Positions 6,337 through 14,910 of a stretch of 64,000 bases of DNA are shown piece by piece. The DNA is from Marinicella sp. (lineage in GTDB: Bacteria; Pseudomonadota; Gammaproteobacteria; Xanthomonadales; Marinicellaceae). The notes below the pieces were generated by a model. The model saw only the letters and a list, made by a program, of their open reading frames with translations. It made no database searches and was not told the origin of the DNA. The position numbers and the translations under genes were made by a program. Positions within the stretch are counted from its first letter, which is position 1. Every line of letters starts with the position of its first letter. The stretch covers positions 1,248,001-1,312,000 of the forward strand of contig OZ246001.1 in the NCBI GenBank assembly GCA_965230295.1, written 5' to 3'.

Positions 6337-7095
6337 ATGCTGTTAGATGTGCTGCAATGGGTGGTGTTGTCCTTGGTTCAAGGGCTGACTGAATTCCTGC
6401 CCATTTCATCTTCAGCACATTTGATTCTGGCATCCAAATTTGCCAGCTGGCAAGACCAAGGTCTGGTGATGGACATCGCGGCTCATTTTGGTTCTTTGTT
6501 GGCCGTGATGATTTATTACCGCAAAGAGATCACCAAACTGTTATCGGGTCAAGACTGGCCTTTGTTCCAACAACTGTTGGTAGCCAGCATACCCATCGCC
6601 TTGACCGGCATCTTGCTGGCCGGGGTGATTGAAGAGCACCTTCGTGAAACCTGGATCATTGCTGCTGCTTCAGCACTGTTTGGTGTGCTGTTGTGGTTCA
6701 GTCAAAGATACAGTAAAAACCGATCTATGGACATGAAAGCGGCCGTCCTGATTGGCTTGGCACAATGCCTGGCTTTGATTCCGGGTGCTTCACGATCAGG
6801 CGTAACCATGACAGCTGGTATGGCCTTGGGATTGAATAAATCACAGGCCGCCAAATTTTCATTTCTACTGGCCATTCCTGCCATCTTGATGACCAGTGCT
6901 TACGGCGCGATGAAACTGATTGAAGCACCACAAACTTATGATCTGATGGGCGTGATCACCATAGTTTCTTTGAGTTTTTTCTCGGCTTGGATGTGCATTC
7001 ATTGGTTCATGAAATACATAGAACGCATTGATTTTATTTGGTTCATGCACTACCGCTTGTTGTTGGCTATACTGATACTATTAACACTCATCTGA
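6337..7095 (+). CDS. uppP: Undecaprenyl-diphosphate phosphatase
   Basis: QGLTEFLPISSSAHL and PGASRSG signature motifs; polytopic membrane protein. Confidence 0.95.
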   Translation: MLLDVLQWVVLSLVQGLTEFLPISSSAHLILASKFASWQDQGLVMDIAAHFGSLLAVMIYYRKEITKLLSGQDWPLFQQLLVASIPIALTGILLAGVIEEHLRETWIIAAASALFGVLLWFSQRYSKNRSMDMKAAVLIGLAQCLALIPGASRSGVTMTAGMALGLNKSQAAKFSFLLAIPAILMTSAYGAMKLIEAPQTYDLMGVITIVSLSFFSAWMCIHWFMKYIERIDFIWFMHYRLLLAILILLTLI

Positions 7096-7109
7096 AAGAC
7101 TGTAATTAT

Positions 7110-8003
7110 ATGACTGGCATTGATTTACCCAAAGACATCATTTTTGAAACCCGTTATGGCAACATAGCCGGCTTACAATGGGGTAAAGGCAACACCGAAT
7201 CAGTTCTGGCCCTGCATGGATGGTTAGACAACGCCGCCAGTTTTTGGCACCTGGCACCTTTGTTGGCAGCCCATGACATGGAAATCACAGCGATCGACTT
7301 TCCTGGCCACGGTCACTCAGACCACCGTGCTCCAGGACACAATTACGGCTTCATAGATTACGTGATGGACTTGCAGGCCGTGTTGCAACAAATGGAGCAG
7401 CCGACCACCTTACTGTGTCATTCCATGGGTGCAGCCATAGCCGTCATGTATGCGGCGGCTTTTCCCGAACATGTCAAACAGTTGGTATTGATTGAAAACT
7501 TAGGACCTGTGCCGCCCTTTCAACCAGGCAAAGCAGCAGAATCATTGCGAGAGGCATTGAAACTTTGGGGTAAGCACAGTCTAGAGCATAAACGCTTTTA
7601 TTCAGACATCGATAAAGCCATCAAAGCCAGACAAGAAGCGACACCGATTGATACAGAAATCATCAGACCCATGGTTGAACGCGGTTTGTGTCAAACCACC
7701 CAAGGCTATCACTGGCGAACCGATAAGCGTTTGCGGTTACGCAGCTTTTTCAGGATGGCTGAAGAACAAATTCAGGAGTTTTTGGCCGCCACCCAAGTAC
7801 CCGCTCAACTGATCATTGCAGAGCCCAAAACATACGCCTTGCAATACCCCATGGTTGATGCCCGCTTAGCTGCACTGGACCCAACCCGGTTTGATCAAAT
7901 TCCAGGCGATCATCATTTACATATGGGCCAAGCCAAGCTTGTATCCGAAGCCATATTGGCCTTCCTCAACCGCACTCAAGATAACAGCAGTGATGCAAGC
8001 TGA
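7110..8003 (+). CDS. Alpha/beta fold hydrolase
   Basis: LHGWLDNAASF, DFPGHGHS, CHSMG and GDHHLH. Start moved to ATG 7110, just after the uppP stop. Confidence 0.88.
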   Translation: MTGIDLPKDIIFETRYGNIAGLQWGKGNTESVLALHGWLDNAASFWHLAPLLAAHDMEITAIDFPGHGHSDHRAPGHNYGFIDYVMDLQAVLQQMEQPTTLLCHSMGAAIAVMYAAAFPEHVKQLVLIENLGPVPPFQPGKAAESLREALKLWGKHSLEHKRFYSDIDKAIKARQEATPIDTEIIRPMVERGLCQTTQGYHWRTDKRLRLRSFFRMAEEQIQEFLAATQVPAQLIIAEPKTYALQYPMVDARLAALDPTRFDQIPGDHHLHMGQAKLVSEAILAFLNRTQDNSSDAS

Positions 8004-9141
8004 TTTTCCAGATTTATTGGATCAACACATGCGCAGGATCCGAGCCAGCGCTTCGGCAGTTGCTTTGGAAATCGGGATGAGTCGAGAAGCCGTAAACAAT
8101 TGGCGCAGGGGGTATTCCAAACCAAGCAAGAAACACCGCGACAAGGTGGTTGCTTGCTCAAATTACCTGCGATTAAGTGAAGCGGAATGCAATGAGTTGT
8201 TGGCATCCGTCGGTTTTGATCACGAATATGCCCTGTATCAATCCACCAACCAGTCCCAAGACCACTTGTTCATCCAGCTGGAACAGGCTCAACCATACCC
8301 CATATTGATGGTATTGACTCAGGACCACCTGGACCAACCTCCACAAAAACAACTGATCGTTGAGGCGGCTCAAACCAAATACCCTGATCGCCAGACCCTG
8401 CACGTCCAATTACCTTATTCAAACAACATCACAGTCGCTGATTTTTTTCACTTCATTGGCCAGCAAATGGGATTGATGCAGGTGCATGATGAATTGAGCT
8501 TTGAATTTGCTCTTAATGATCTATTACAGGCCACTGAAATCAATTTGATCATCACCCGTTTTGAACAAGGTAACCAAACATGTCGCAACCTGTTATCCGG
8601 CGTTTTAAGGAATTTATGCGAAATGCACGTCGGACGAATTCATTTGGTTCTGTGTGGCGGCGAACAACTCTCGGCTTTGAAATACGCACAAGGCGATTTA
8701 TCTTTATTGAACATTGCCAGTGCTTACATGATGACTTTTGATTTGGCTCAATGGCTGGCCGTTCAAACAATCATCAATCATTCATTTGATCACCATCAAG
8801 TGATGTATGAACTGATAGGAAATCACCCATCAATGGCCTCTTCCTTATTTGCCGCCATTCAAGAAGGGCACGATCATGAAGCACTCATACAAATGGTGAT
8901 GAACAGTGATGTGCTGTTCAGTGATTTCAATCAAGTCATCCGACAGTCCGGTAAAGCCCCATTGCAAGAAAAATTAACTGCTGACGGTCTGGGACCTTAT
9001 CGACCTTACATCCAAGACCCGGTGCTGCGCCAATTGTTTTGGTTGAATTTAATTGGTAAGAATCAAGACAATCAGCTGGTATGGCATTCAGATACCATCC
9101 GACAGGTGGGCATTAATTTGTTGGCAGAACAATCACTTTGA
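7993..9141 (+). CDS. XRE-type HTH fused to a probably inactive STAND/AAA-like domain (putative regulator)
   Basis: N-terminal ASAVALEIGMSREAVNNWRRG is a Cro/C1-type HTH. The rest has P-loop-like strand/helix order but no GxxxxGK, a Walker-B-like LIITRFE and a GNHP (GxP) motif. Start at ATG 7993. Confidence 0.65.
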   Translation: MQADFPDLLDQHMRRIRASASAVALEIGMSREAVNNWRRGYSKPSKKHRDKVVACSNYLRLSEAECNELLASVGFDHEYALYQSTNQSQDHLFIQLEQAQPYPILMVLTQDHLDQPPQKQLIVEAAQTKYPDRQTLHVQLPYSNNITVADFFHFIGQQMGLMQVHDELSFEFALNDLLQATEINLIITRFEQGNQTCRNLLSGVLRNLCEMHVGRIHLVLCGGEQLSALKYAQGDLSLLNIASAYMMTFDLAQWLAVQTIINHSFDHHQVMYELIGNHPSMASSLFAAIQEGHDHEALIQMVMNSDVLFSDFNQVIRQSGKAPLQEKLTADGLGPYRPYIQDPVLRQLFWLNLIGKNQDNQLVWHSDTIRQVGINLLAEQSL

Positions 9142-11258
9142 AAGGCGATACATCGATCCAAAGAATCTTACTGATCATTGTGCTCAGCGTTTTGACTTTG
9201 CCTTATGTGATGCAAGTACTGTTGTCCCGAGGCAGCTTGTTACCTGATGAAGCCGAATTAGAAACCTTACAATGGTTCACTGAATTGAAAAGCATCAGAA
9301 ACCTCGTCACCCATCACCAAAATCAAACCAACCAATGGCCACAATCGCTCAACGAACTGATCTACAACTTTGGTAAACCCCGTTACCAAGAACTGGATCT
9401 TTCGATTGAATTTCAAATCACCAGCACACCCGGTAAGCGCATCAAAAGTAACGAATTACAAGGCTCACAAATTGTTTTGAAATATGGCACTGGTTGGCAC
9501 TGCGTGCCTGATAAAACGACCATTCCTGATGCCTACAAACCCATCGAATGTGGCGGTTCATTGCGAAGCACAACCCAACGTTCTTTACCATCGGAAAAGA
9601 CCATGCACATCATTGCCATCATTGCCCTGCTGGGCATTGTGATTGGGGTGGTGTTTTATCACCCAACCATCAGATTATTGCGAGGTCGTGAATTCTCCTT
9701 AGCCACCCAAAGATTGGTGGATCTCAGAAAGCTGTCTCTGTTAACCCGGTTATCAGGTTTACAACCCAACATCCTGCAGGCCAATGATTTGAACAGCCGG
9801 TCCTGGCAGAAGGTTGCTACTTTTCGGTCATTGCCTGCGAAACAAAAGATCAATTGGTTCAAAAGGGTGTGGCCTACCCAACAGATTAAAAATGTCAAAC
9901 CCCAACTGTTTCATGTTCAACTCGACCCTGAGTTTGTATTGAACATGGATAATTTGTATCTCTACATGGCTGACAAGGGCATCAGCATCAATCGCATCAA
10001 AAGCCACCTCAAGCAAGCCAACATAGACCATCAAGCAGTGCTGATTTGGGCAGAAGACCCGGCATTGAGCCAACAATTACAAGTTCATCGGTCTCGGTTC
10101 CAACAGCCCGTTCTACTGCCCAACCAACAGCAAATGACTCAGTTACTGGTGGCCAAATATGCCAGCCAAACATGGATTGATTTGATGGTCTCATTCCTGC
10201 CGATCAACCAATTGTCTCCTTATCAGGGCAAGGGCGGGATTTTAAAATCCAGCCACTTCTATGGACGCGAGCACATTTTAGATCAACTGAAAAACAACAC
10301 CCAATCGTGCTTCTTGTTGGTCGGTGGTCGACAATTGGGTAAGACATCGATTCTCAAAGCTTATGAACGACTGCTGAAACATTCAGCCAGACACCACTGT
10401 TTTTACATTTCCATGTCTGATGATCGATTAATGGCCAGGTTGGCGTACCACTTAAAGATCACTGAATATGCTGATTTGACAGACTTGCTCAACCAATACC
10501 ATCAACTCAATCCTGGTATTGAGTTGGTCTTGCTGCTGGATGAAACAGATCGATTCATCGCGACTGAAGTGACCCATGATTTTCCTTTGTTGGCAGAGGT
10601 TCGCGCGTGTGCTGAACAAGGGTTGGGTCAAATGGTGTTTGCCGGTTTCTGGGATTTGTATGCCAGTGCTGTTTTGGATTACCAGTCACCGATCAGAAAT
10701 TTTGCTGAAGTCATCACTGTAGGCGCTCTTCAAGCCATGCCAGCCAAGCGCTTATTAACAGAACCCATGACTGTTCTGAAACAGCATTACAGCAACCAGG
10801 AAGTGATTGAATATGCGTTGAACCAAACCGGCCATCGGGCCAATTTACTCAACCTGATTGGTGAGTCTTTGGTCGAACAACTGGCCCAAAAAGCGCAGCC
10901 AATCGATCAGACAATGATTGATGAAGCCTTACAAAGTCAGACCATGTTTGATGCCTTACAAGGCTGGTCCCAATTGACCAGAGATCCTGATGCCTCTGCA
11001 TTGGACCGCATGGTTGTGTATCTGACATTTATCCATCAACAAATTGACTTGACACTGATCTTGCAGCATTTACAACAAGCTCAAGTCCCAATCGATGCTG
11101 AACAACTGAAACAAGCATTGCAGCGACTGCGTTTGGCCCACATCTTGGAAAAAAACAACGATCATTACTGTTTTTCAGTGCCATTATTTACTCAACAACA
11201 CAGCGTACAGGAAGCCAAGGCCCTGTTAGCACAAGAGTGCCAAAACCACCACAGTTGA
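9138..11258 (+). CDS. Membrane-anchored STAND-class ATPase with an extracytoplasmic pilin-like domain
   Basis: TM near aa 9-28; helix plus WHC...PIEC pilin-like disulfide loop (aa 120-138); second TM near aa 156-174; SPY...FYGRE, Walker A GGRQLGKTS (aa 396), Walker B LLLDETD and a wHTH-like tail. The TTG start overlaps the upstream TGA. Confidence 0.75.
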   Translation: MKGDTSIQRILLIIVLSVLTLPYVMQVLLSRGSLLPDEAELETLQWFTELKSIRNLVTHHQNQTNQWPQSLNELIYNFGKPRYQELDLSIEFQITSTPGKRIKSNELQGSQIVLKYGTGWHCVPDKTTIPDAYKPIECGGSLRSTTQRSLPSEKTMHIIAIIALLGIVIGVVFYHPTIRLLRGREFSLATQRLVDLRKLSLLTRLSGLQPNILQANDLNSRSWQKVATFRSLPAKQKINWFKRVWPTQQIKNVKPQLFHVQLDPEFVLNMDNLYLYMADKGISINRIKSHLKQANIDHQAVLIWAEDPALSQQLQVHRSRFQQPVLLPNQQQMTQLLVAKYASQTWIDLMVSFLPINQLSPYQGKGGILKSSHFYGREHILDQLKNNTQSCFLLVGGRQLGKTSILKAYERLLKHSARHHCFYISMSDDRLMARLAYHLKITEYADLTDLLNQYHQLNPGIELVLLLDETDRFIATEVTHDFPLLAEVRACAEQGLGQMVFAGFWDLYASAVLDYQSPIRNFAEVITVGALQAMPAKRLLTEPMTVLKQHYSNQEVIEYALNQTGHRANLLNLIGESLVEQLAQKAQPIDQTMIDEALQSQTMFDALQGWSQLTRDPDASALDRMVVYLTFIHQQIDLTLILQHLQQAQVPIDAEQLKQALQRLRLAHILEKNNDHYCFSVPLFTQQHSVQEAKALLAQECQNHHS

Positions 11259-11269: not shown

Positions 11270-11409
11270 GTCTACACATCAAGCACTGGACAACATCACC
11301 ACGACACGGTTAATACCTCTTCGTAAAATGCCCATAATCTGATCACGACAGCATACTTTCATGGCTGTTGGTCAGTGTAAACACAACCCATAACCAAAAG
11401 GAAAGAACC

Positions 11410-11910
11410 ATGAAAAATCATTTACCAGTGATCGGCTTGATGGGCTTAATGATCACCCAATGGAGCCAGAGTCATGCTGCAGAAATCAACACAAAAGATG
11501 TCATCGCCATCCATGAATCATTCATCGATGCCATCAAAGATCGGGATTTCACAGTGTATGAAAAGTACTTACACAAAGACACCAAAATTTTTGTTGATTT
11601 AGACCCAGCACCAGGCAATGAATTACAACGAATAGAACTGGATGAATTCAAAGAATTGGCGTTGATGTCATTGCAATTGGCAGATGAGATTGATGTTGTT
11701 GAAGACCTCATCAAAGTGGACCATAACAAACAGAATAACGAAGTGGCCATTTACTCAAGAAGTACAGTTAACATGACCATGATGGGCACCCACATCACTG
11801 AAATTGCTGAAGGAATTACTGTCTACGGGGTGAGAGAAGGGTCAATCAAAATATTGTCCATCAGCGATCAGGTGATTGAATCATCAATCAAAAAAGCCAC
11901 AAATGATTAA
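11410..11910 (+). CDS. Secreted NTF2/SnoaL-like (DUF4440-like) protein
   Basis: Signal peptide ending SHA-A; helix FIDAIKDRDF followed by long beta strands. AAGGA RBS before ATG 11410. Confidence 0.6.
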   Translation: MKNHLPVIGLMGLMITQWSQSHAAEINTKDVIAIHESFIDAIKDRDFTVYEKYLHKDTKIFVDLDPAPGNELQRIELDEFKELALMSLQLADEIDVVEDLIKVDHNKQNNEVAIYSRSTVNMTMMGTHITEIAEGITVYGVREGSIKILSISDQVIESSIKKATND

Positions 11911-11956: not shown

Positions 11957-12478
11957 ATGTTAAAAATTAAAGTCAAAGACAGCACCCACCAAGTCATCTC
12001 TGTAATCAGCAAATACTTATGTATCATCGGATTCATTGGAACCGTTGGATTTTTTGGCTACTCGATGATTAAAAATTATCAGGAAGCGACCACCATCTTG
12101 AATGATGCCCAAGTGATTGATGCGGATTTGATGTTGACTGATGTGACTGTTGAAAGTGGTCGCAAAGGCCGGTCCAAAAATGTTTATGAGTTCACTTATT
12201 CTTATGAAGCTGGCGGACAACTGTATGAGAAGTCTTTCACCACCAGTGAAAACAACGCCGATAAATACGTTGATGAAACCACCATCCCGGTGGCCTATGC
12301 CAAATCCAATCCAGAACTGTCCGGCAAACTCAAGCAACTGGAGAAAAACAGCAGCATAGGCAGTTTAACCTGGCGTGGATTGGTGGCCTTGTTGGGTTTG
12401 ATGTTTCTAGCCGCAGTGATACATGGCATCATCACCGGTGTCTTGTTCATCAACAAAGACAATCCAGAAACCGAATAA
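11957..12478 (+). CDS. DUF3592-like membrane protein
   Basis: TM, then a beta domain (YEFTYSYEAGGQLY...IPVAYAKSNP), then TM. AGGAG RBS. Confidence 0.65.
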   Translation: MLKIKVKDSTHQVISVISKYLCIIGFIGTVGFFGYSMIKNYQEATTILNDAQVIDADLMLTDVTVESGRKGRSKNVYEFTYSYEAGGQLYEKSFTTSENNADKYVDETTIPVAYAKSNPELSGKLKQLEKNSSIGSLTWRGLVALLGLMFLAAVIHGIITGVLFINKDNPETE

Positions 12479-12538: not shown

Positions 12539-14029
12539 TCAAGATTTCACATCTTCTTTAGTTACCCAGATTTCTGTGCGGTTGTTCCGATAACGCCCCA
12601 CTTCACTGTCATTGCTGTCGATGGGCAACTGATTGCCCAAAGCGATTATTTCCACATTTCTGATCCCCCTTTGTTTCAACTCATAAGCCAACAACTTACT
12701 GCGGATGAAAGCCCGTGTTTGGTCGGCTTTTTCATTCTGAGATTCACCCGCCGAAAAACCGATTAAAGTGATTTTCTTGTGCGGTGTTTGATTCAGGTAA
12801 GTCACCAGGTGATTGATGTCTTGAGCAGACTTGTTGTCAATTTCTGCTCGGTCAGATCGCATCCTAAAGGTGGTGGAGAGCCGAACTCCGTTCAATGCAA
12901 TTTGCTGATATTTTATTGGAAATTCATGATCAATATAGGGCAGCGTGCTGGTGATTTTTTGTGGTATAAAACTGACTTGCTCAACCAATTGTTGTCCTGT
13001 GCCCGAAACAGCAAAATCTATCAACCCCGACACATGACTGTTTTCAGAACGTTCTTTATTGGCATACAAAAACAAACGCCGACTGAGGGCATAATCTTCT
13101 GAACTGATTGAAAACTGTTTGGGCTCGATGGCGGCAATCCCCACATCAGCAGATACTTTTAGAATCATGTCTTTTGAGGCATAGGCCAAACCGGTAAAAC
13201 CAATTGCTGATTCGTCAAGAGCCACTGATTTCGCCAACAACTCATTGGATTCATATCGGCTGGCTGGTGCCAGCTGTTTGTTGTATTTTTTTAATACCAG
13301 AGATTTAAAAGTATCATAGGTTCCAGATTGGTCATCCCTGGCATACAATGACATGGGTAAATCTTTTCCTCCTAATTCGGACCAGTTGGTTATTTCACCC
13401 GCAAAGACCTTTGACAATTGATCCACTGTGATAGTTTTTATTGGGTTGCCGGGATGGGTGATGATGGCCAGGCCATCCAATGCAATCACATGTTCGCTTT
13501 CCGAATTGGTCATGTCACCATATTTGATCAACAAATCTAAATTCTCACTGTGTTTAATCCGCCTTGAAGACATCGCCACATCGGTTTTGTTGGCAATCAA
13601 GGATTTGAATCCCGTACTTGATCCATGAGCCTTGATTTCTATGGCCACCACTTTGTTCTGATCTGGCAAAAATCCAATGACCTGCATTTCATTTTCGGTG
13701 GTTAAAGGCTTGCTGATGGTGACCTCTGAACCCAGCTGTCTGATATAGGCTGCAGCCAATGCAGGTGCCAATTTGTCACCAATGGTGTTTGATCCATCCA
13801 TACGTAAAATGACTTCTGCTTGGGCAGTTAACAAATCTGGAGGGGCGAGGCGCGTGGCGGTTTTCTCGACAACTGGTGTTTGGGTTTCAGTTTGAAAGAC
13901 CTCTTGCTGATCAACGGCTTCATCATCGGGATGATTCTCTGTAAAAAATTTAAAATAAAAGACAATGGCACCGAAGATCAAAAAGGCAACGATGAGGATT
14001 TCAAACAAATAACTTTTGATTTGATTCAT
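12539..14029 (-). CDS. PstS-like phosphate-binding protein fused to an OmpA-like peptidoglycan-binding domain
   Basis: GSNTIG, HGSSTG, MSSR and RDDQSGT (PstS-type motifs); C-terminal GRYRNNRTEIW (OmpA_C-like); N-terminal TM anchor. Confidence 0.85.
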   Translation of the reverse strand: MNQIKSYLFEILIVAFLIFGAIVFYFKFFTENHPDDEAVDQQEVFQTETQTPVVEKTATRLAPPDLLTAQAEVILRMDGSNTIGDKLAPALAAAYIRQLGSEVTISKPLTTENEMQVIGFLPDQNKVVAIEIKAHGSSTGFKSLIANKTDVAMSSRRIKHSENLDLLIKYGDMTNSESEHVIALDGLAIITHPGNPIKTITVDQLSKVFAGEITNWSELGGKDLPMSLYARDDQSGTYDTFKSLVLKKYNKQLAPASRYESNELLAKSVALDESAIGFTGLAYASKDMILKVSADVGIAAIEPKQFSISSEDYALSRRLFLYANKERSENSHVSGLIDFAVSGTGQQLVEQVSFIPQKITSTLPYIDHEFPIKYQQIALNGVRLSTTFRMRSDRAEIDNKSAQDINHLVTYLNQTPHKKITLIGFSAGESQNEKADQTRAFIRSKLLAYELKQRGIRNVEIIALGNQLPIDSNDSEVGRYRNNRTEIWVTKEDVKS

Positions 14030-14073
14030 GACAAAGAACAATGATTTAATTAATTGAATTGTTCTCTGGTGTC

Positions 14074-14133: not shown

Positions 14134-14910
14134 TTAGCCACCAAAAAAACAGCCCGGCATGGTTGATTGGATGTCTTCAAAGTCTCGTGAAGTACATTGC
14201 CACACCAATTGGTGGTTTCTCTCTCTGGGAATCAATACGATCTTGCCACCATCAACACCTGATTTAGCTGTGTATTCAATGGTGATGCGACCGCCTTTAG
14301 AAACAGCTATTGATTTCACTGTGTCATTGGCATAAGACTCAGGTCTGGGTAACCTTAACTTGGTGTTTGAATCTGGAAAACGTCCTTCCATCATATAATA
14401 TTCAGCCACATAGGTTTTGATCATCACTCCAGTTTGTAGTCCGGACGCCCGATAACTGGCATGCAATGCTTGTTTTTGTAGCACTTCATATTGAGCTTTC
14501 ATCTGTTGTTCTTGCTGTTGTTTCGCTGCCAAATCTTCAACCACAGCATCCAGTGTTTCTATTTGTCCTTCAATCACTGTGGATTGTTGCTTTGATTCTT
14601 CCATGCGCTGTTCAATCGCTTCAGACTGACGTTTGGATTCTGCCAGGCGTTGATCTAATAAATCACTTTGCTGCTCAGTCGCTTGCAATTGTTGTTCAAG
14701 GATTTGGGCTTGATTTTCCGCGGCTTCAATCAAAGCTTGTTGTTGATTTACTTGTTCAGCATCCTGAGTGCTGACTGACTTTTGTAACTGTTGTAAAGAC
14801 TCGTGCAGTTGATTCCGTTCTTCTAGCCACTGGCGTTTTTGTTGGTGATTGTCATACAACAAATAAGTCACTAACAGAAGTAATAGGCCTGCTGTTATCT
14901 TGATGTACAT
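14134..14910 (-). CDS. Membrane-anchored coiled-coil protein with a C-terminal pilin-like globular domain
   Basis: N-terminal TM, about 130 aa of Q/E-rich coiled coil, then KTYVAEYYMMEGRFP...GRITIEY...LVWQC...MPGC, typical of a type IV pilin head. No prepilin G/FTLIE motif. Confidence 0.75.
   Translation of the reverse strand: MYIKITAGLLLLLVTYLLYDNHQQKRQWLEERNQLHESLQQLQKSVSTQDAEQVNQQQALIEAAENQAQILEQQLQATEQQSDLLDQRLAESKRQSEAIEQRMEESKQQSTVIEGQIETLDAVVEDLAAKQQQEQQMKAQYEVLQKQALHASYRASGLQTGVMIKTYVAEYYMMEGRFPDSNTKLRLPRPESYANDTVKSIAVSKGGRITIEYTAKSGVDGGKIVLIPRERNHQLVWQCTSRDFEDIQSTMPGCFFGG

What the first reader, a model, noticed from the sequence alone, without database searches (positions are those of the whole stretch)
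7993..11258. Candidate new transmembrane signalling pair: HTH plus dead STAND-like ATPase coupled to a pilin-headed membrane STAND ATPase
Seen: two genes joined by a TTGA start/stop overlap. Gene 1 has an XRE-like HTH followed by a domain with STAND-like layout (GNHP at the GxP position) but no Walker A lysine motif and a degenerate Walker B (LIITRFE). Gene 2 has TM, an exported domain, TM, a linker of about 190 aa, intact Walker A GGRQLGKTS and Walker B LLLDETD, and a wHTH-like end. Established: STAND NTPases are sensor-switch proteins that oligomerise through their NTPase domains, and active/inactive pairs occur in bacterial conflict systems. Inference: the membrane ATPase senses something in the periplasm and recruits or releases the HTH protein through a STAND-pseudoSTAND contact. 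That would be a kinase-free two-component logic with a transcriptional rather than toxic output. I do not know of a characterised system with this architecture.
Basis: partly seen in the sequence, partly recalled or inferred. Interest (0 to 1): 0.82.

Follow-up and report, generated by a model that had tools for sequence, protein, structure and literature searches.

The report
Membrane STAND sensor with HTH partner
Two overlapping genes encode a membrane-spanning ATPase switch with a pilin-like outer domain and a DNA-binding partner that carries a dead copy of the same ATPase, and they belong to a larger, apparently undescribed family in which both the sensor and the output domain are swapped.

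Summary
Gene 1 (7993-9141) is an XRE-type HTH joined to a roughly 300-residue domain with no Walker A. Gene 2 (9138-11258) is TM, pilin-like head, TM, linker, intact Walker A/B STAND ATPase. They share a TTGA overlap.

The pair sits together in all 77 genome loci where this could be tested, and no other gene cluster was found in more than 22 of 80 loci. A profile comparison links gene 1's C-domain to gene 2's own NTPase module (E 2.6e-5; reversed controls 0.11 and 0.24).

The new result is the family context. The dead-STAND domain occurs in 367 representative proteins. Most listed ones carry a TIR domain at the N-terminus, and a few carry phosphoesterase, caspase, CHAT or trypsin domains. In metagenome loci these genes are followed by gene 2 relatives whose pilin head is replaced by membrane-flanked WD40 arrays.

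So this is the HTH/pilin subtype of a modular two-gene, conflict-type STAND system that senses outside the cytoplasm. I found no description of it in PADLOC or in the texts I searched.

Not tested: physical contact between the two proteins, the transcriptional output and the signal.

The parts
7993..9141 (+). Gene 1: HTH plus inactive STAND-like protein, 382 aa (P0001)
   Evidence: ORF and translation. More than 236 homologues. Residues 1-12 are conserved in homologues (F5 and L9 in 90% or more), which favours the ATG at 7993 over the 370-aa database form P0013.
8020..8178 (+). XRE-type helix-turn-helix (residues 10-62), the best conserved part of the pair
   Evidence: Pfam HTH_3 and HTH_31. 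Many invariant columns between M13 and L61. Mean pairwise identity 77%.
8248..9138 (+). Inactive STAND-like domain (residues 86-382): Walker A position 8302-8343 reads ILMVLTQDHLDQPP, Walker B position 8542-8571 reads NLIITRFEQG, GNHP lies within 8815-8835
   Evidence: hhalign against the gene 2 NTPase module, E 2.6e-5, with controls. Weak AAA_35 hits. Atlas neighbours are HTH+AAA_35 clusters. Coordinates.
9138..11258 (+). Gene 2: membrane-spanning STAND ATPase, 706 aa (P0002), TTG start overlapping the stop of gene 1 (TTGA)
   Evidence: Homologues lie directly downstream of gene 1 in 77 loci. The N-terminus M-x-x-DTS is conserved in Marinicella loci with TTG or GTG starts.
9159..9230 (+). TM1 (about residues 8-31)
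   Evidence: Hydropathy scan.
9231..9587 (+). Exported pilin-like head (residues 32-150) with invariant W67, P68, C122 and C138
   Evidence: Head profile A6 against PDB: 10 of 13 hits are type IV pilins, E 0.037-0.27. Pfam Pilin in 4 of 28 homologues. Invariant columns. It is among the most variable parts, 36% mean identity.
9600..9671 (+). TM2 (about residues 155-178), followed by the conserved juxtamembrane H-P motif
   Evidence: The TM2 region also aligns in the WD40-type relatives.
9690..10199 (+). Cytoplasmic linker domain (residues 185-354), conserved in pilin-type and WD40-type relatives, family unknown
   Evidence: The A2 profile matches from about position 160 onward in WD40-type proteins. 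No Pfam hit. Atlas structural neighbours of homologue P0007 have TM 0.41-0.62 and include Mrr_cat-like proteins, all 'under the bar', so this is a lead only.
10200..10817 (+). Active STAND-type NTPase (residues 355-560): SPYQ..GG..F.GR lead-in, Walker A at 10323-10349, Walker B at 10527-10550
   Evidence: Pfam AAA_22 E 2.1e-6 in the window protein. nSTAND1 in 17 of 28 homologues, best 3.2e-9. Invariant columns. Coordinates.
10818..11255 (+). C-terminal helical, presumed winged-helix part of the STAND module (residues 561-706)
   Evidence: Conserved (60% mean identity), with invariant G565, R567, N569 and L570. The fold was not tested because the tool was off.
11957..12478 (+). Possible accessory third gene: DUF3592 membrane protein, 173 aa
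   Evidence: Pfam DUF3592 E 8.5e-7. Homologues lie next to the pair in 16 of 80 loci: upstream on the same strand in 12, upstream and divergent in 1, downstream of gene 2 in 3 Marinicella loci as in the window.

Best explanation
The locus is a translationally coupled two-gene module. It belongs to a modular family of STAND systems that sense outside the cytoplasm.

Gene B (gene 2 here) is a receptor. It has a variable extracytoplasmic sensor held between two membrane segments (a pilin-like head here, WD40 arrays in relatives), a conserved cytoplasmic linker and an active nSTAND1-like NTPase. Gene A (gene 1 here) is an adaptor-output protein. It has a Walker-A-less copy of the same NTPase module and carries a variable N-terminal output domain: HTH here, and mostly TIR elsewhere.

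Proposed mechanism (inferred, not shown):
1. An event at the envelope is registered by the pilin-like head.
2. The signal crosses the membrane and lets the ATPase bind ATP and oligomerise.
3. The dead-STAND domain of gene 1 joins this oligomer, or leaves it.
4. The HTH domains are thereby clustered or released, and their DNA binding changes.

In this subtype the output is most likely a change in transcription, where the TIR-type relatives would use NAD-directed toxicity.
For: Shown here:
- Real pair with a TTGA overlap.
- Gene 2 relatives lie directly downstream of gene 1 relatives in 77 of 80 loci from Marinicella, Lysobacterales, Pseudomonas, Acidovorax and other Burkholderiales. The other three loci are cut off.
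- By my start-picking rule, 74 of 76 loci have a stop/start overlap: 34 of 4 nt, 35 of 16 nt, 5 of other lengths.
- No other gene cluster occurs in more than 22 of 80 loci.
- Gene 1's C-domain is related to gene 2's NTPase module: hhalign Prob 74.6%, E 2.6e-5, 216 columns. The Walker A, Walker B, sensor and GxP positions are in register. Controls gave E 0.11, 0.24 and 0.36.
- The C-domain profile finds 367 representative proteins. Of the 150 listed I classed 123 by N-terminus: 83 in a TIR-type cluster (TIR_2 in 71 of 83), 29 HTH, 4 Metallophos, 7 others. Within the TIR-type cluster some members also hit SEFIR (6), CHAT (5), EAD2 (2), DUF676 (2), and trypsin, caspase and ParA-like models (1 each).
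- In metagenome loci, 9 of 11 C-domain genes with at least 600 nt of downstream sequence are followed directly by a gene 2-type gene. Three distinct genes (four loci, L125 and L135 being the same sequence in opposite orientation) match the A2 profile at E 1e-139 to 1e-172 from about position 160 or 235 to 715.
- Their N-termini are WD40 arrays flanked by hydrophobic segments, for example L125 at 10-37 and 556-580.
- The head is a variable part (36% mean identity), against 69% for the NTPase and 77% for the HTH.
Against: - No test of binding was possible. Complex prediction was unreachable and structure prediction was off.
- The hhalign probability is moderate (74.6%). The first, shallower comparison was not significant (E 0.028, Prob 1.8%).
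- No operator conserved across clades was found upstream of gene 1, and no target genes are known.
- Most relatives carry toxic-type effectors, so a defence role is a live alternative for the HTH subtype too.
- C-domain-only genes in two genomes (G064, G190) have no gene 2 relative beside them, so the pairing is not universal in the wider family.
- The window protein itself does not reach the Pfam nSTAND1 or Pilin models.
- Distribution is patchy: 3 of 18 other genomes of the genus. This fits an accessory module better than a core regulator.
Confidence: 0.6

Rival explanations
1. The HTH/pilin pair is an anti-phage or anti-invader system like its TIR relatives. The head detects an envelope event such as phage adsorption or attack on pilus components. 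The HTH-dead-STAND protein then acts as a DNA-directed effector, coating or silencing invader or host DNA, and is not a gene-specific regulator.
For: The family's usual outputs are conflict-system effectors: TIR_2 in 71 of 83, plus caspase, CHAT, trypsin, Metallophos and EAD2. Distribution is patchy. The sensor evolves fast. nSTAND1 is described in conflict systems (passages of PMC8195603). HTH domains are noted in effector positions of other predicted immune systems (passage of 10.64898/2026.10.19.760177).
Against: No PADLOC model matches the core of either protein. The window neighbourhood is housekeeping (BacA, hydrolase, PBP-OmpA) and its composition is flat. The HTH is nearly invariant across orders, which is unusual for a part engaged in an arms race.
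Confidence: 0.22
2. Gene 1 is only the autoregulator of the operon. Gene 2, possibly with the DUF3592 protein, does the real work at the membrane without a STAND-to-dead-STAND contact.
For: Many accessory operons start with an XRE-type repressor (recalled general knowledge). A DUF3592 membrane gene is linked in 16 of 80 loci in three arrangements.
Against: The HTH sits exactly where TIR and other effectors sit, on the same dead-STAND domain. A 300-residue conserved domain homologous to the partner's NTPase is not needed for a simple repressor. No shared inverted repeat was found upstream across clades.
Confidence: 0.1
3. Gene 2 is a housekeeping factor of type IV pilus or type II secretion biogenesis, a pilin-like subunit with an attached ATPase, and gene 1 regulates pilus genes.
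For: The pilin-like head with conserved W-P and two Cys. The genome carries several atypical pilin-module proteins.
Against: None of the gene clusters near the pair is shared by more than 22 of 80 loci, though I did not annotate them by family. The ATPase is of STAND/AAA_22 type. From reading the N-terminus, against a motif I recall, there is no prepilin-peptidase site. Only 3 of 18 other genomes of the genus carry it. In relatives the head is replaced by WD40 arrays.
Confidence: 0.05

Closest known systems
iSTAND component of the MoxR-vWA ternary conflict systems (Kaur et al. 2020, PMC7159879; passages read)
   Same: A catalytically inactive STAND module carries variable N-terminal signalling or effector domains (TIR, caspase-like, trypsin-like, EADs). 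It is predicted to couple sensing to effector deployment.
   Different: The partner here is one active, membrane-spanning STAND ATPase and not a MoxR AAA+ plus vWA pair. No third conserved gene was found. An HTH output and a pilin-like sensor are not mentioned ('pilin' occurs 0 times in the text). Sequence membership in iSTAND could not be tested because no model was at hand.
Active/inactive STAND gene pair with GT4 or HEPN effectors (Kaur et al. 2021, PMC8195603; passages read)
   Same: Two STAND proteins are encoded together. One has eroded NTP-binding motifs and is fused to variable effectors. The authors predict a hetero-multimer.
   Different: Those are described as closer to the RNA12 type of STAND, with GT4/HEPN outputs, and no membrane topology is mentioned. 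Here the active partner is nSTAND1-like with an extracytoplasmic sensor, and the outputs are HTH, TIR and others.
Single-chain STAND defence proteins (Avs, bacterial NACHT; effector-NTPase-sensor), as summarised in passages of 10.1101/2023.09.22.558884 and 10.64898/2026.10.19.760177
   Same: The tripartite logic of sensor, NTP switch and effector, with oligomerisation as the presumed trigger. TIR and peptidase effectors are shared.
   Different: Here the logic is split over two genes. The sensor is N-terminal and outside the cytoplasm, not C-terminal and cytoplasmic. The effector sits on a dead paralogous module.
[quoted passage not shown]
   Same: An HTH is coupled to a STAND or AAA-like module, so oligomeric state could govern DNA binding.
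   Different: Those are single soluble proteins, and MalT and AfsR have an active NTPase (recalled). Here the HTH protein has lost Walker A and depends, by inference, on a separate membrane receptor.
Two-component and anti-sigma transmembrane signalling (general knowledge, recalled)
   Same: A transmembrane sensor is encoded next to its DNA-binding output protein.
   Different: No histidine kinase, receiver, sigma or anti-sigma domain is detected. The predicted switch is nucleotide-dependent oligomerisation.

Membership tests
STAND NTPase (gene 2) | Walker A GxxxxGK[ST] and Walker B hhhhD[DE] | tested here: met
   GGRQLGKTS 396-404 and VLLLDETD 464-471, invariant in 28 homologues.
STAND NTPase (gene 2) | Profile match to a curated STAND family (Pfam nSTAND1 PF20703, AAA_16, ATPase_2) | tested here: inconclusive
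   Window protein: AAA_22 2.1e-6, AAA_16 0.0015, ATPase_2 0.22, no nSTAND1 hit. Homologues: nSTAND1 in 17 of 28, best 3.2e-9, and AAA_16 in 24 of 28.
STAND NTPase (gene 2) | Helical and winged-helix domains after the NTPase | not testable with these tools
There are no PDB sequence relatives.
Inactive STAND (gene 1 C-domain) | Homology to a STAND NTPase with loss of the nucleotide-binding motifs | tested here: met
   hhalign of a 137-sequence C-domain alignment against an 81-sequence gene 2 module: Prob 74.6%, E 2.6e-5, colinear. Reversed controls gave E 0.11 and 0.24. There is no GK[ST] at the Walker A position in the HTH-type or TIR-type members aligned. The support is moderate and not structural.
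iSTAND ternary system (Kaur 2020) | Linked MoxR AAA+ and vWA genes | tested here: not met
   Clustering of all ORFs of 80 loci: only gene 1 and gene 2 are shared by more than 22 loci. The neighbours were not scanned one by one with MoxR or vWA models.
iSTAND ternary system (Kaur 2020) | Variable N-terminal TIR, peptidase or EAD domains on the inactive STAND | tested here: met
   TIR_2 in 71 of 83, CHAT 5, SEFIR 6, EAD2 2, trypsin 1, caspase 1. Metallophos in 3 of the 3 members of that 4-protein cluster that were scanned.
Type IV pilin (gene 2 head) | N-terminal hydrophobic helix followed by a globular head with a C-terminal disulfide pair | tested here: inconclusive
   10 of 13 PDB hits of head profile A6 are type IV pilins, aligned from the helix through 'eWP' to 'W.C', but each is only E 0.037-0.27. 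Pfam Pilin in 4 of 28 homologues. C122 and C138 are invariant.
Type IV pilin (gene 2 head) | Class III signal peptide cut by prepilin peptidase (Gly before the cut, Glu at +5; motif recalled) | tested here: not met
   The N-terminus MKGDTSIQRILLIIVLSV has no such motif by eye. A second TM follows the head, so the head stays tethered at both ends.
XRE-family HTH (gene 1 N-terminus) | Match to HTH_3 or HTH_31 models | tested here: inconclusive
   Window protein 17.3 bits against a cut-off of 23. 23 of 27 homologues hit HTH_3 and 10 of 27 hit HTH_31, best 7.1e-6. The region also matches the HTH of a 301-aa ORF elsewhere in the genome (E 7.3e-8).
Two-component system | Histidine kinase and receiver domains | tested here: not met
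   No such Pfam or NCBIfam hit in either protein.
Known or candidate defence systems in PADLOC-DB v2 | Match of the core proteins to a system model | tested here: not met
   Only a weak P-loop hit to PDC-S01 (8.6e-5) for gene 2. In the TIR/WD40-type relatives only the TIR, Metallophos and repeat parts match.

The most novel reading that the evidence does not exclude
This family is a so far unrecognised class of outside-in STAND receptors. In it a nucleotide-dependent oligomerisation switch, not phosphotransfer or regulated proteolysis, carries information from an extracytoplasmic sensor (pilin-like head or periplasmic WD40 arrays) across the inner membrane to a dead-STAND adaptor. The HTH/pilin subtype would then be a conflict-system chassis turned into a transmembrane transcription switch, perhaps one that monitors pilins, pilus-binding phages or the pilus machinery.
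Probability: 0.3. Interest if true: 0.85.

Novelty: new variant of a known kind. Interest (0 to 1): 0.68.

Why it matters
STAND/NLR-type switches are known as cytoplasmic sensors in immunity and as soluble transcription regulators. A family whose sensor lies outside the cytoplasm, and whose output sits on a separate inactive paralogue, would add a new way of signalling across the bacterial membrane.

It would also be a natural example of one chassis being rewired between toxic (TIR) and regulatory (HTH) outputs. It gives a directly testable model for how inactive STAND modules work.

The HTH/pilin subtype occurs in culturable Pseudomonas, Acidovorax, Stenotrophomonas and Marinicella strains, so the tests are practical.

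Tried and rejected
The P-loop fold of gene 1's C-domain, the WHD of gene 2 and the fold of the linker therefore rest on sequence profiles only.
- Complex prediction (gene 2 residues 185-706 with gene 1, alignments A2 and A1): the machine was unreachable in seven identical tries. No result of any kind.
- PDB sequence searches with the whole-protein profiles A1 and A2: nothing useful.
- First hhalign of A1 against A2: colinear but not significant (E 0.028, Prob 1.8%). It was superseded by deeper alignments.
- hhalign of A2 against the window's other pilin-domain protein: weak (E 0.021, Prob 2.2%).
- Atlas search on the linker of homologue P0007: the best feature hit was 0.82, and the structural neighbours (TM 0.41-0.62, some Mrr_cat-like) were all 'under the bar'. 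I name no family for the linker.
- Search for a shared inverted repeat in the 260 nt upstream of gene 1 in 79 sequences: only clade-specific repeats, none across clades.
- Promoter and terminator scans: at or near shuffle expectation.
- Sequencing runs: no RNA holder listed.
I replaced it with a motif scan.
- Phylum search with A5: most matches are TIR-only. Only 7 of 401 genomes, G000 included, match across the C-domain. G410, an unpublished genome, is one of the 401 searched. Its only match is TIR-only, and no other claim rests on it.
- Tree of C-domains (FastTree, 137 rows; the slower search did not finish). HTH rows cluster: 5 label changes against 27.4 in shuffles, with one clade of 24 rows at 100% support holding 23 of the 30 HTH rows. 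The window's Marinicella trio sits apart on a long branch that the tool flags, so a single origin of the HTH type is neither shown nor excluded.
- EACC1 (Kaur 2020) was considered and rejected. It is described as a single-TM domain paired with a caspase protein.
- Literature: searches for nSTAND1; STAND NTPase + pilin + inactive; EACC1; STAND + transmembrane + periplasmic + TIR domain + WD40; AAA_35/PF14516; STAND + pilin-like + transmembrane + ATPase + defense; and DUF3592 found no description of this pair. Supplementary tables of Kaur et al. 2020 and 2021 were not open to me and may list such architectures.

Full report
1. The observation.

Gene 1 read from the ATG at 7993 is 382 aa. The longest ORF starts at a TTG at 7891, and the database copy (P0013, 370 aa) starts at M13. 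Residues 1-12 are conserved in homologues, so 7993 is the likeliest start. Gene 2 starts at TTG 9138 and is 706 aa. The four letters TTGA at 9138-9141 hold its start and the stop of gene 1.

- GNHP at 276-279.
- NLIITRFEQG at 184-193.
- No GK[ST] where a Walker A would lie (ILMVLTQDHLDQPP, 104-117).
- GGRQLGKTS at 396-404 and VLLLDETD at 464-471 in gene 2.

Hydropathy gives two membrane segments in gene 2, at about 5-31 and 152-181. Pfam sees only a weak HTH_3 in gene 1 and AAA_22, AAA_14 and AAA_16 in gene 2. NCBIfam and PADLOC add nothing solid.

2. The pair is a conserved unit.

Gene 1 has more than 236 homologues in the 90% clusters. Gene 2 found only 10 by the word-based search. Context shows that this figure is a limit of the search and does not reflect how many relatives exist.

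A scan of one genome per species confirmed 148 places, and 80 were fetched. In 77 of them a full-length gene 2 relative lies directly downstream on the same strand. L004, L035 and L059 end 114-1033 nt after gene 1 or inside it, so nothing can be said about them.

With my rule for picking the start (first start codon from 40 nt before the stop of gene 1), 74 of 76 loci show an overlap: 34 of 4 nt, 35 of 16 nt, 5 of other lengths. One locus abuts and one has a 142-nt gap.

Clustering all ORFs of the 80 loci shows no further gene cluster in more than 22 loci. One exception deserves note. A DUF3592 membrane protein (window 11957-12478) lies beside the pair in 16 of 80 loci. It is upstream on the same strand in 12 loci (mostly Lysobacterales, plus L062 and L066), upstream and divergent in 1 (L021), and downstream in 3 Marinicella loci, as in the window. 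Linkage that survives rearrangement suggests an optional third component.

The module is accessory:
- It is single-copy in this 4.0-Mb genome.
- It is found in 3 of 18 other genomes of the genus and in 1 of 12 genomes from other genera of the order.
- It matches across the C-domain in only 7 of 401 sampled genomes of the phylum.

The window shows no island signature and has housekeeping neighbours.

3. What the parts are.

Gene 2 relatives hit Pfam nSTAND1 in 17 of 28 (best 3.2e-9) and AAA_16 in 24 of 28. The ATPase is therefore a STAND of the nSTAND1 kind, with all nucleotide-binding residues invariant.

The exported part keeps W67, P68, C122 and C138 in all 28 to 31 sequences. A profile of it finds type IV pilins as 10 of its 13 PDB hits. 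These align from the hydrophobic helix through the 'eWP' motif to the first Cys. Each hit is only marginal, at E 0.037-0.27. Pfam Pilin hits 4 of 28 relatives. By eye there is no prepilin-peptidase site, and a second TM tethers the head. I therefore read it as a pilin-like sensor head and not as a pilus subunit.

The 170-residue linker after TM2 has no family. Atlas structural neighbours of a homologue are weak and mixed.

For gene 1, the HTH is the most conserved stretch of the whole system (77% mean identity). Its C-domain gave no Pfam family above threshold. The hints are these:
- AAA_35 appears weakly in 6 of 27 HTH-type and 7 of 83 TIR-type members, best 2.2e-6.
- The nearest named language-model clusters of a homologue are HTH+AAA_35 proteins, at 0.97.

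The direct test was a profile-profile comparison of a 137-sequence C-domain alignment with an 81-sequence alignment of gene 2's NTPase module. It gave Prob 74.6%, E 2.6e-5 and 216 colinear columns. The missing Walker A aligns to GGRQLGKTS, FEQG to DExD, LLCGGE to FAGFWD and GGHP to GQRAN. Reversed-sequence controls gave E 0.11 and 0.24, and the linker gave 0.36.

4. The family context (the main new result).

A profile of the C-domain alone found 367 representative proteins at E 0.001 or better, 186 of them at 1e-30 or better. Of the 150 listed I set aside 27 that were fragments or had fewer than 60 residues before the domain. I clustered the N-termini of the other 123:
- 83 fall in one cluster that is TIR: TIR_2 in 71 of 83, TIR in 51.
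- 29 are the HTH type.
- 4 form a cluster whose 3 scanned members carry Metallophos.
- 7 are other types.

Within the TIR cluster some members also carry SEFIR (6), CHAT (5), EAD2 (2), DUF676 esterase (2), and trypsin, caspase or a ParA-like NTPase (1 each). P0171 (TIR cluster) and P0237 (Metallophos cluster) have a C-terminal AAA_21/AAA_15 ATPase. This is the effector repertoire of the conflict systems of Kaur et al. 2020.

To see what lies beside the TIR-type genes I scanned metagenome contigs with a motif of their C-domain. Of the 26 loci, 23 hold such a gene. Of the 11 with at least 600 nt downstream:
- 9 have a gene 2-type gene directly adjacent.
- One has a WD40 ORF 777 nt away (L140).
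- One has nothing (L130).

L133, with only 385 nt downstream, also starts a WD40 gene. Where the sequence reaches far enough, the downstream protein matches the gene 2 profile from about position 160 to 715 at E 1e-156 to 1e-172 (L125/L135 and L137). In L141 the match runs from position 235, at E 1e-139, in a 506-aa protein with no sensor or TM.

In place of the pilin head these proteins carry 5 to 14 WD40 repeats. The repeats are flanked by an N-terminal hydrophobic segment and a TM just before the conserved juxtamembrane motif. The WD40 sensors are therefore predicted to lie outside the cytoplasm too.

Both ends of the system are thus swapped around a constant core: dead STAND plus linker, NTPase and C-terminal module. 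All 77 HTH-type loci have the pilin-type partner. I saw no mixed combination, but the sample of non-HTH loci is small.

Exceptions exist. C-domain-only genes in G064 and G190 have no gene 2 relative nearby.

5. How it most likely works.

Shown:
- The architecture and the coupling of the two genes.
- Homology of the dead and live modules.
- An intact ATP site in gene 2 only.
- Predicted extracytoplasmic sensors.
- Interchangeable outputs.

Inferred:
- The head registers an envelope event.
- The live STAND oligomerises on ATP.
- The dead STAND co-assembles or is released.
- The N-terminal domain of gene 1 is thereby activated.

For TIR this would mean NAD-directed toxicity or signalling. For the HTH it would mean altered DNA binding. 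I give this reading 0.6.

The main rival (0.22) keeps the same mechanics but sees the HTH subtype as a defence system whose HTH acts on DNA globally or on invader DNA. A plain autoregulator (0.10) and a pilus-biogenesis role (0.05) fit the data poorly. No conserved operator was found, and no expression data were available.

6. Comparison with what is known.

The closest concepts are these:
- The iSTAND third component of MoxR-vWA ternary systems (PMC7159879, passages).
- The active/inactive STAND pair with GT4/HEPN effectors (PMC8195603, passages).
- nSTAND1 itself, described in conflict systems.

This module fails the defining MoxR-vWA linkage. It differs from the GT4/HEPN pair in its STAND clade, membrane topology and outputs. 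PADLOC v2 has no model for either core protein. My seven literature searches found no description.

I therefore file it as a new variant of a known kind (STAND-based, effector-swapping conflict-type systems). Its unusual features are an extracytoplasmic sensor on a STAND, and a subtype with a transcription-factor output.

7. Verdict.

It is also less clearly a pure signalling device, because most of its kin carry toxic effectors. Interest 0.68. The decisive tests are complex prediction with controls, interaction assays, a Walker A mutant with RNA-seq and ChIP-seq, topology mapping and a phage panel.

Noticed in passing
window 14134-14910 (-): A 258-aa protein with an N-terminal TM, a long Gln/Glu-rich coiled-coil stretch and a C-terminal Pilin domain (PF00114, E 8.9e-11). 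It is a second atypical 'pilin-headed' protein, about 3 kb from the pair.
   Followed up: partly
L145 (G000:C1:2852683-2855973), ORF ending at locus position 1797: A large ORF (724 aa, 598 aa visible in the locus) ends in a complete pilin-like module: a hydrophobic helix, then a head with W.C...C. The genome has 5 PF00114 matches in all, and only two look like ordinary pilins (143-aa and 154-aa open frames).
   Followed up: partly
window 11957-12478 (+): The DUF3592 two-TM protein is linked to the pair in 16 of 80 loci in three different arrangements. No function is on record in the three papers that mention the name (search listing only).
   Followed up: partly
window 11368-11910 (+): A 180-aa protein with an N-terminal hydrophobic segment lies between gene 2 and the DUF3592 gene. 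Homologues were found only in the two Marinicella loci L001 and L002.
   Followed up: partly
L082 4650-5555 (G000:C1, about 3130650-3131555): A 301-aa ORF whose N-terminal HTH plus following helices matches gene 1 profile positions 7-114 (E 7.3e-8). Its C-terminal part is unrelated, and by eye it looks like an MmyB-type regulator (recalled, not tested).
   Followed up: no
L114 5986-6930 (-) and L115 5884-6912 (+): C-domain-only proteins (314 and 342 aa, no effector domain) sit downstream of a urea-transporter/M23 fusion, a PLP decarboxylase and an ATP-grasp gene. No gene 2 relative is nearby. This is a different context for the dead-STAND domain.
   Followed up: partly
P0171 (760 aa) and P0237 (1034 aa), representative library: The dead-STAND domain is followed in the same protein by an AAA_21/AAA_15 (ABC/OLD-like) ATPase. 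This suggests that another kind of ATPase can take the partner's place.
   Followed up: no
L013 7966-10339 and L125 1495-2970: Broken copies. Gene 2 of L013 is split into two ORFs, and the TIR-type gene 1 of L125/L135 is split into two ORFs (372 + 117 aa).
   Followed up: no
window 12539-14041 (-): A 500-aa fusion of a PstS-like periplasmic binding domain (PBP_like_2, 1.5e-27) with a C-terminal OmpA domain (8.6e-6).
   Followed up: no
window 7038-8003 (+) and 7993: The alpha/beta-hydrolase gene upstream ends 11 nt inside gene 1, so in this genome the pair may be co-transcribed with it. Upstream genes differ in other lineages.
   Followed up: no
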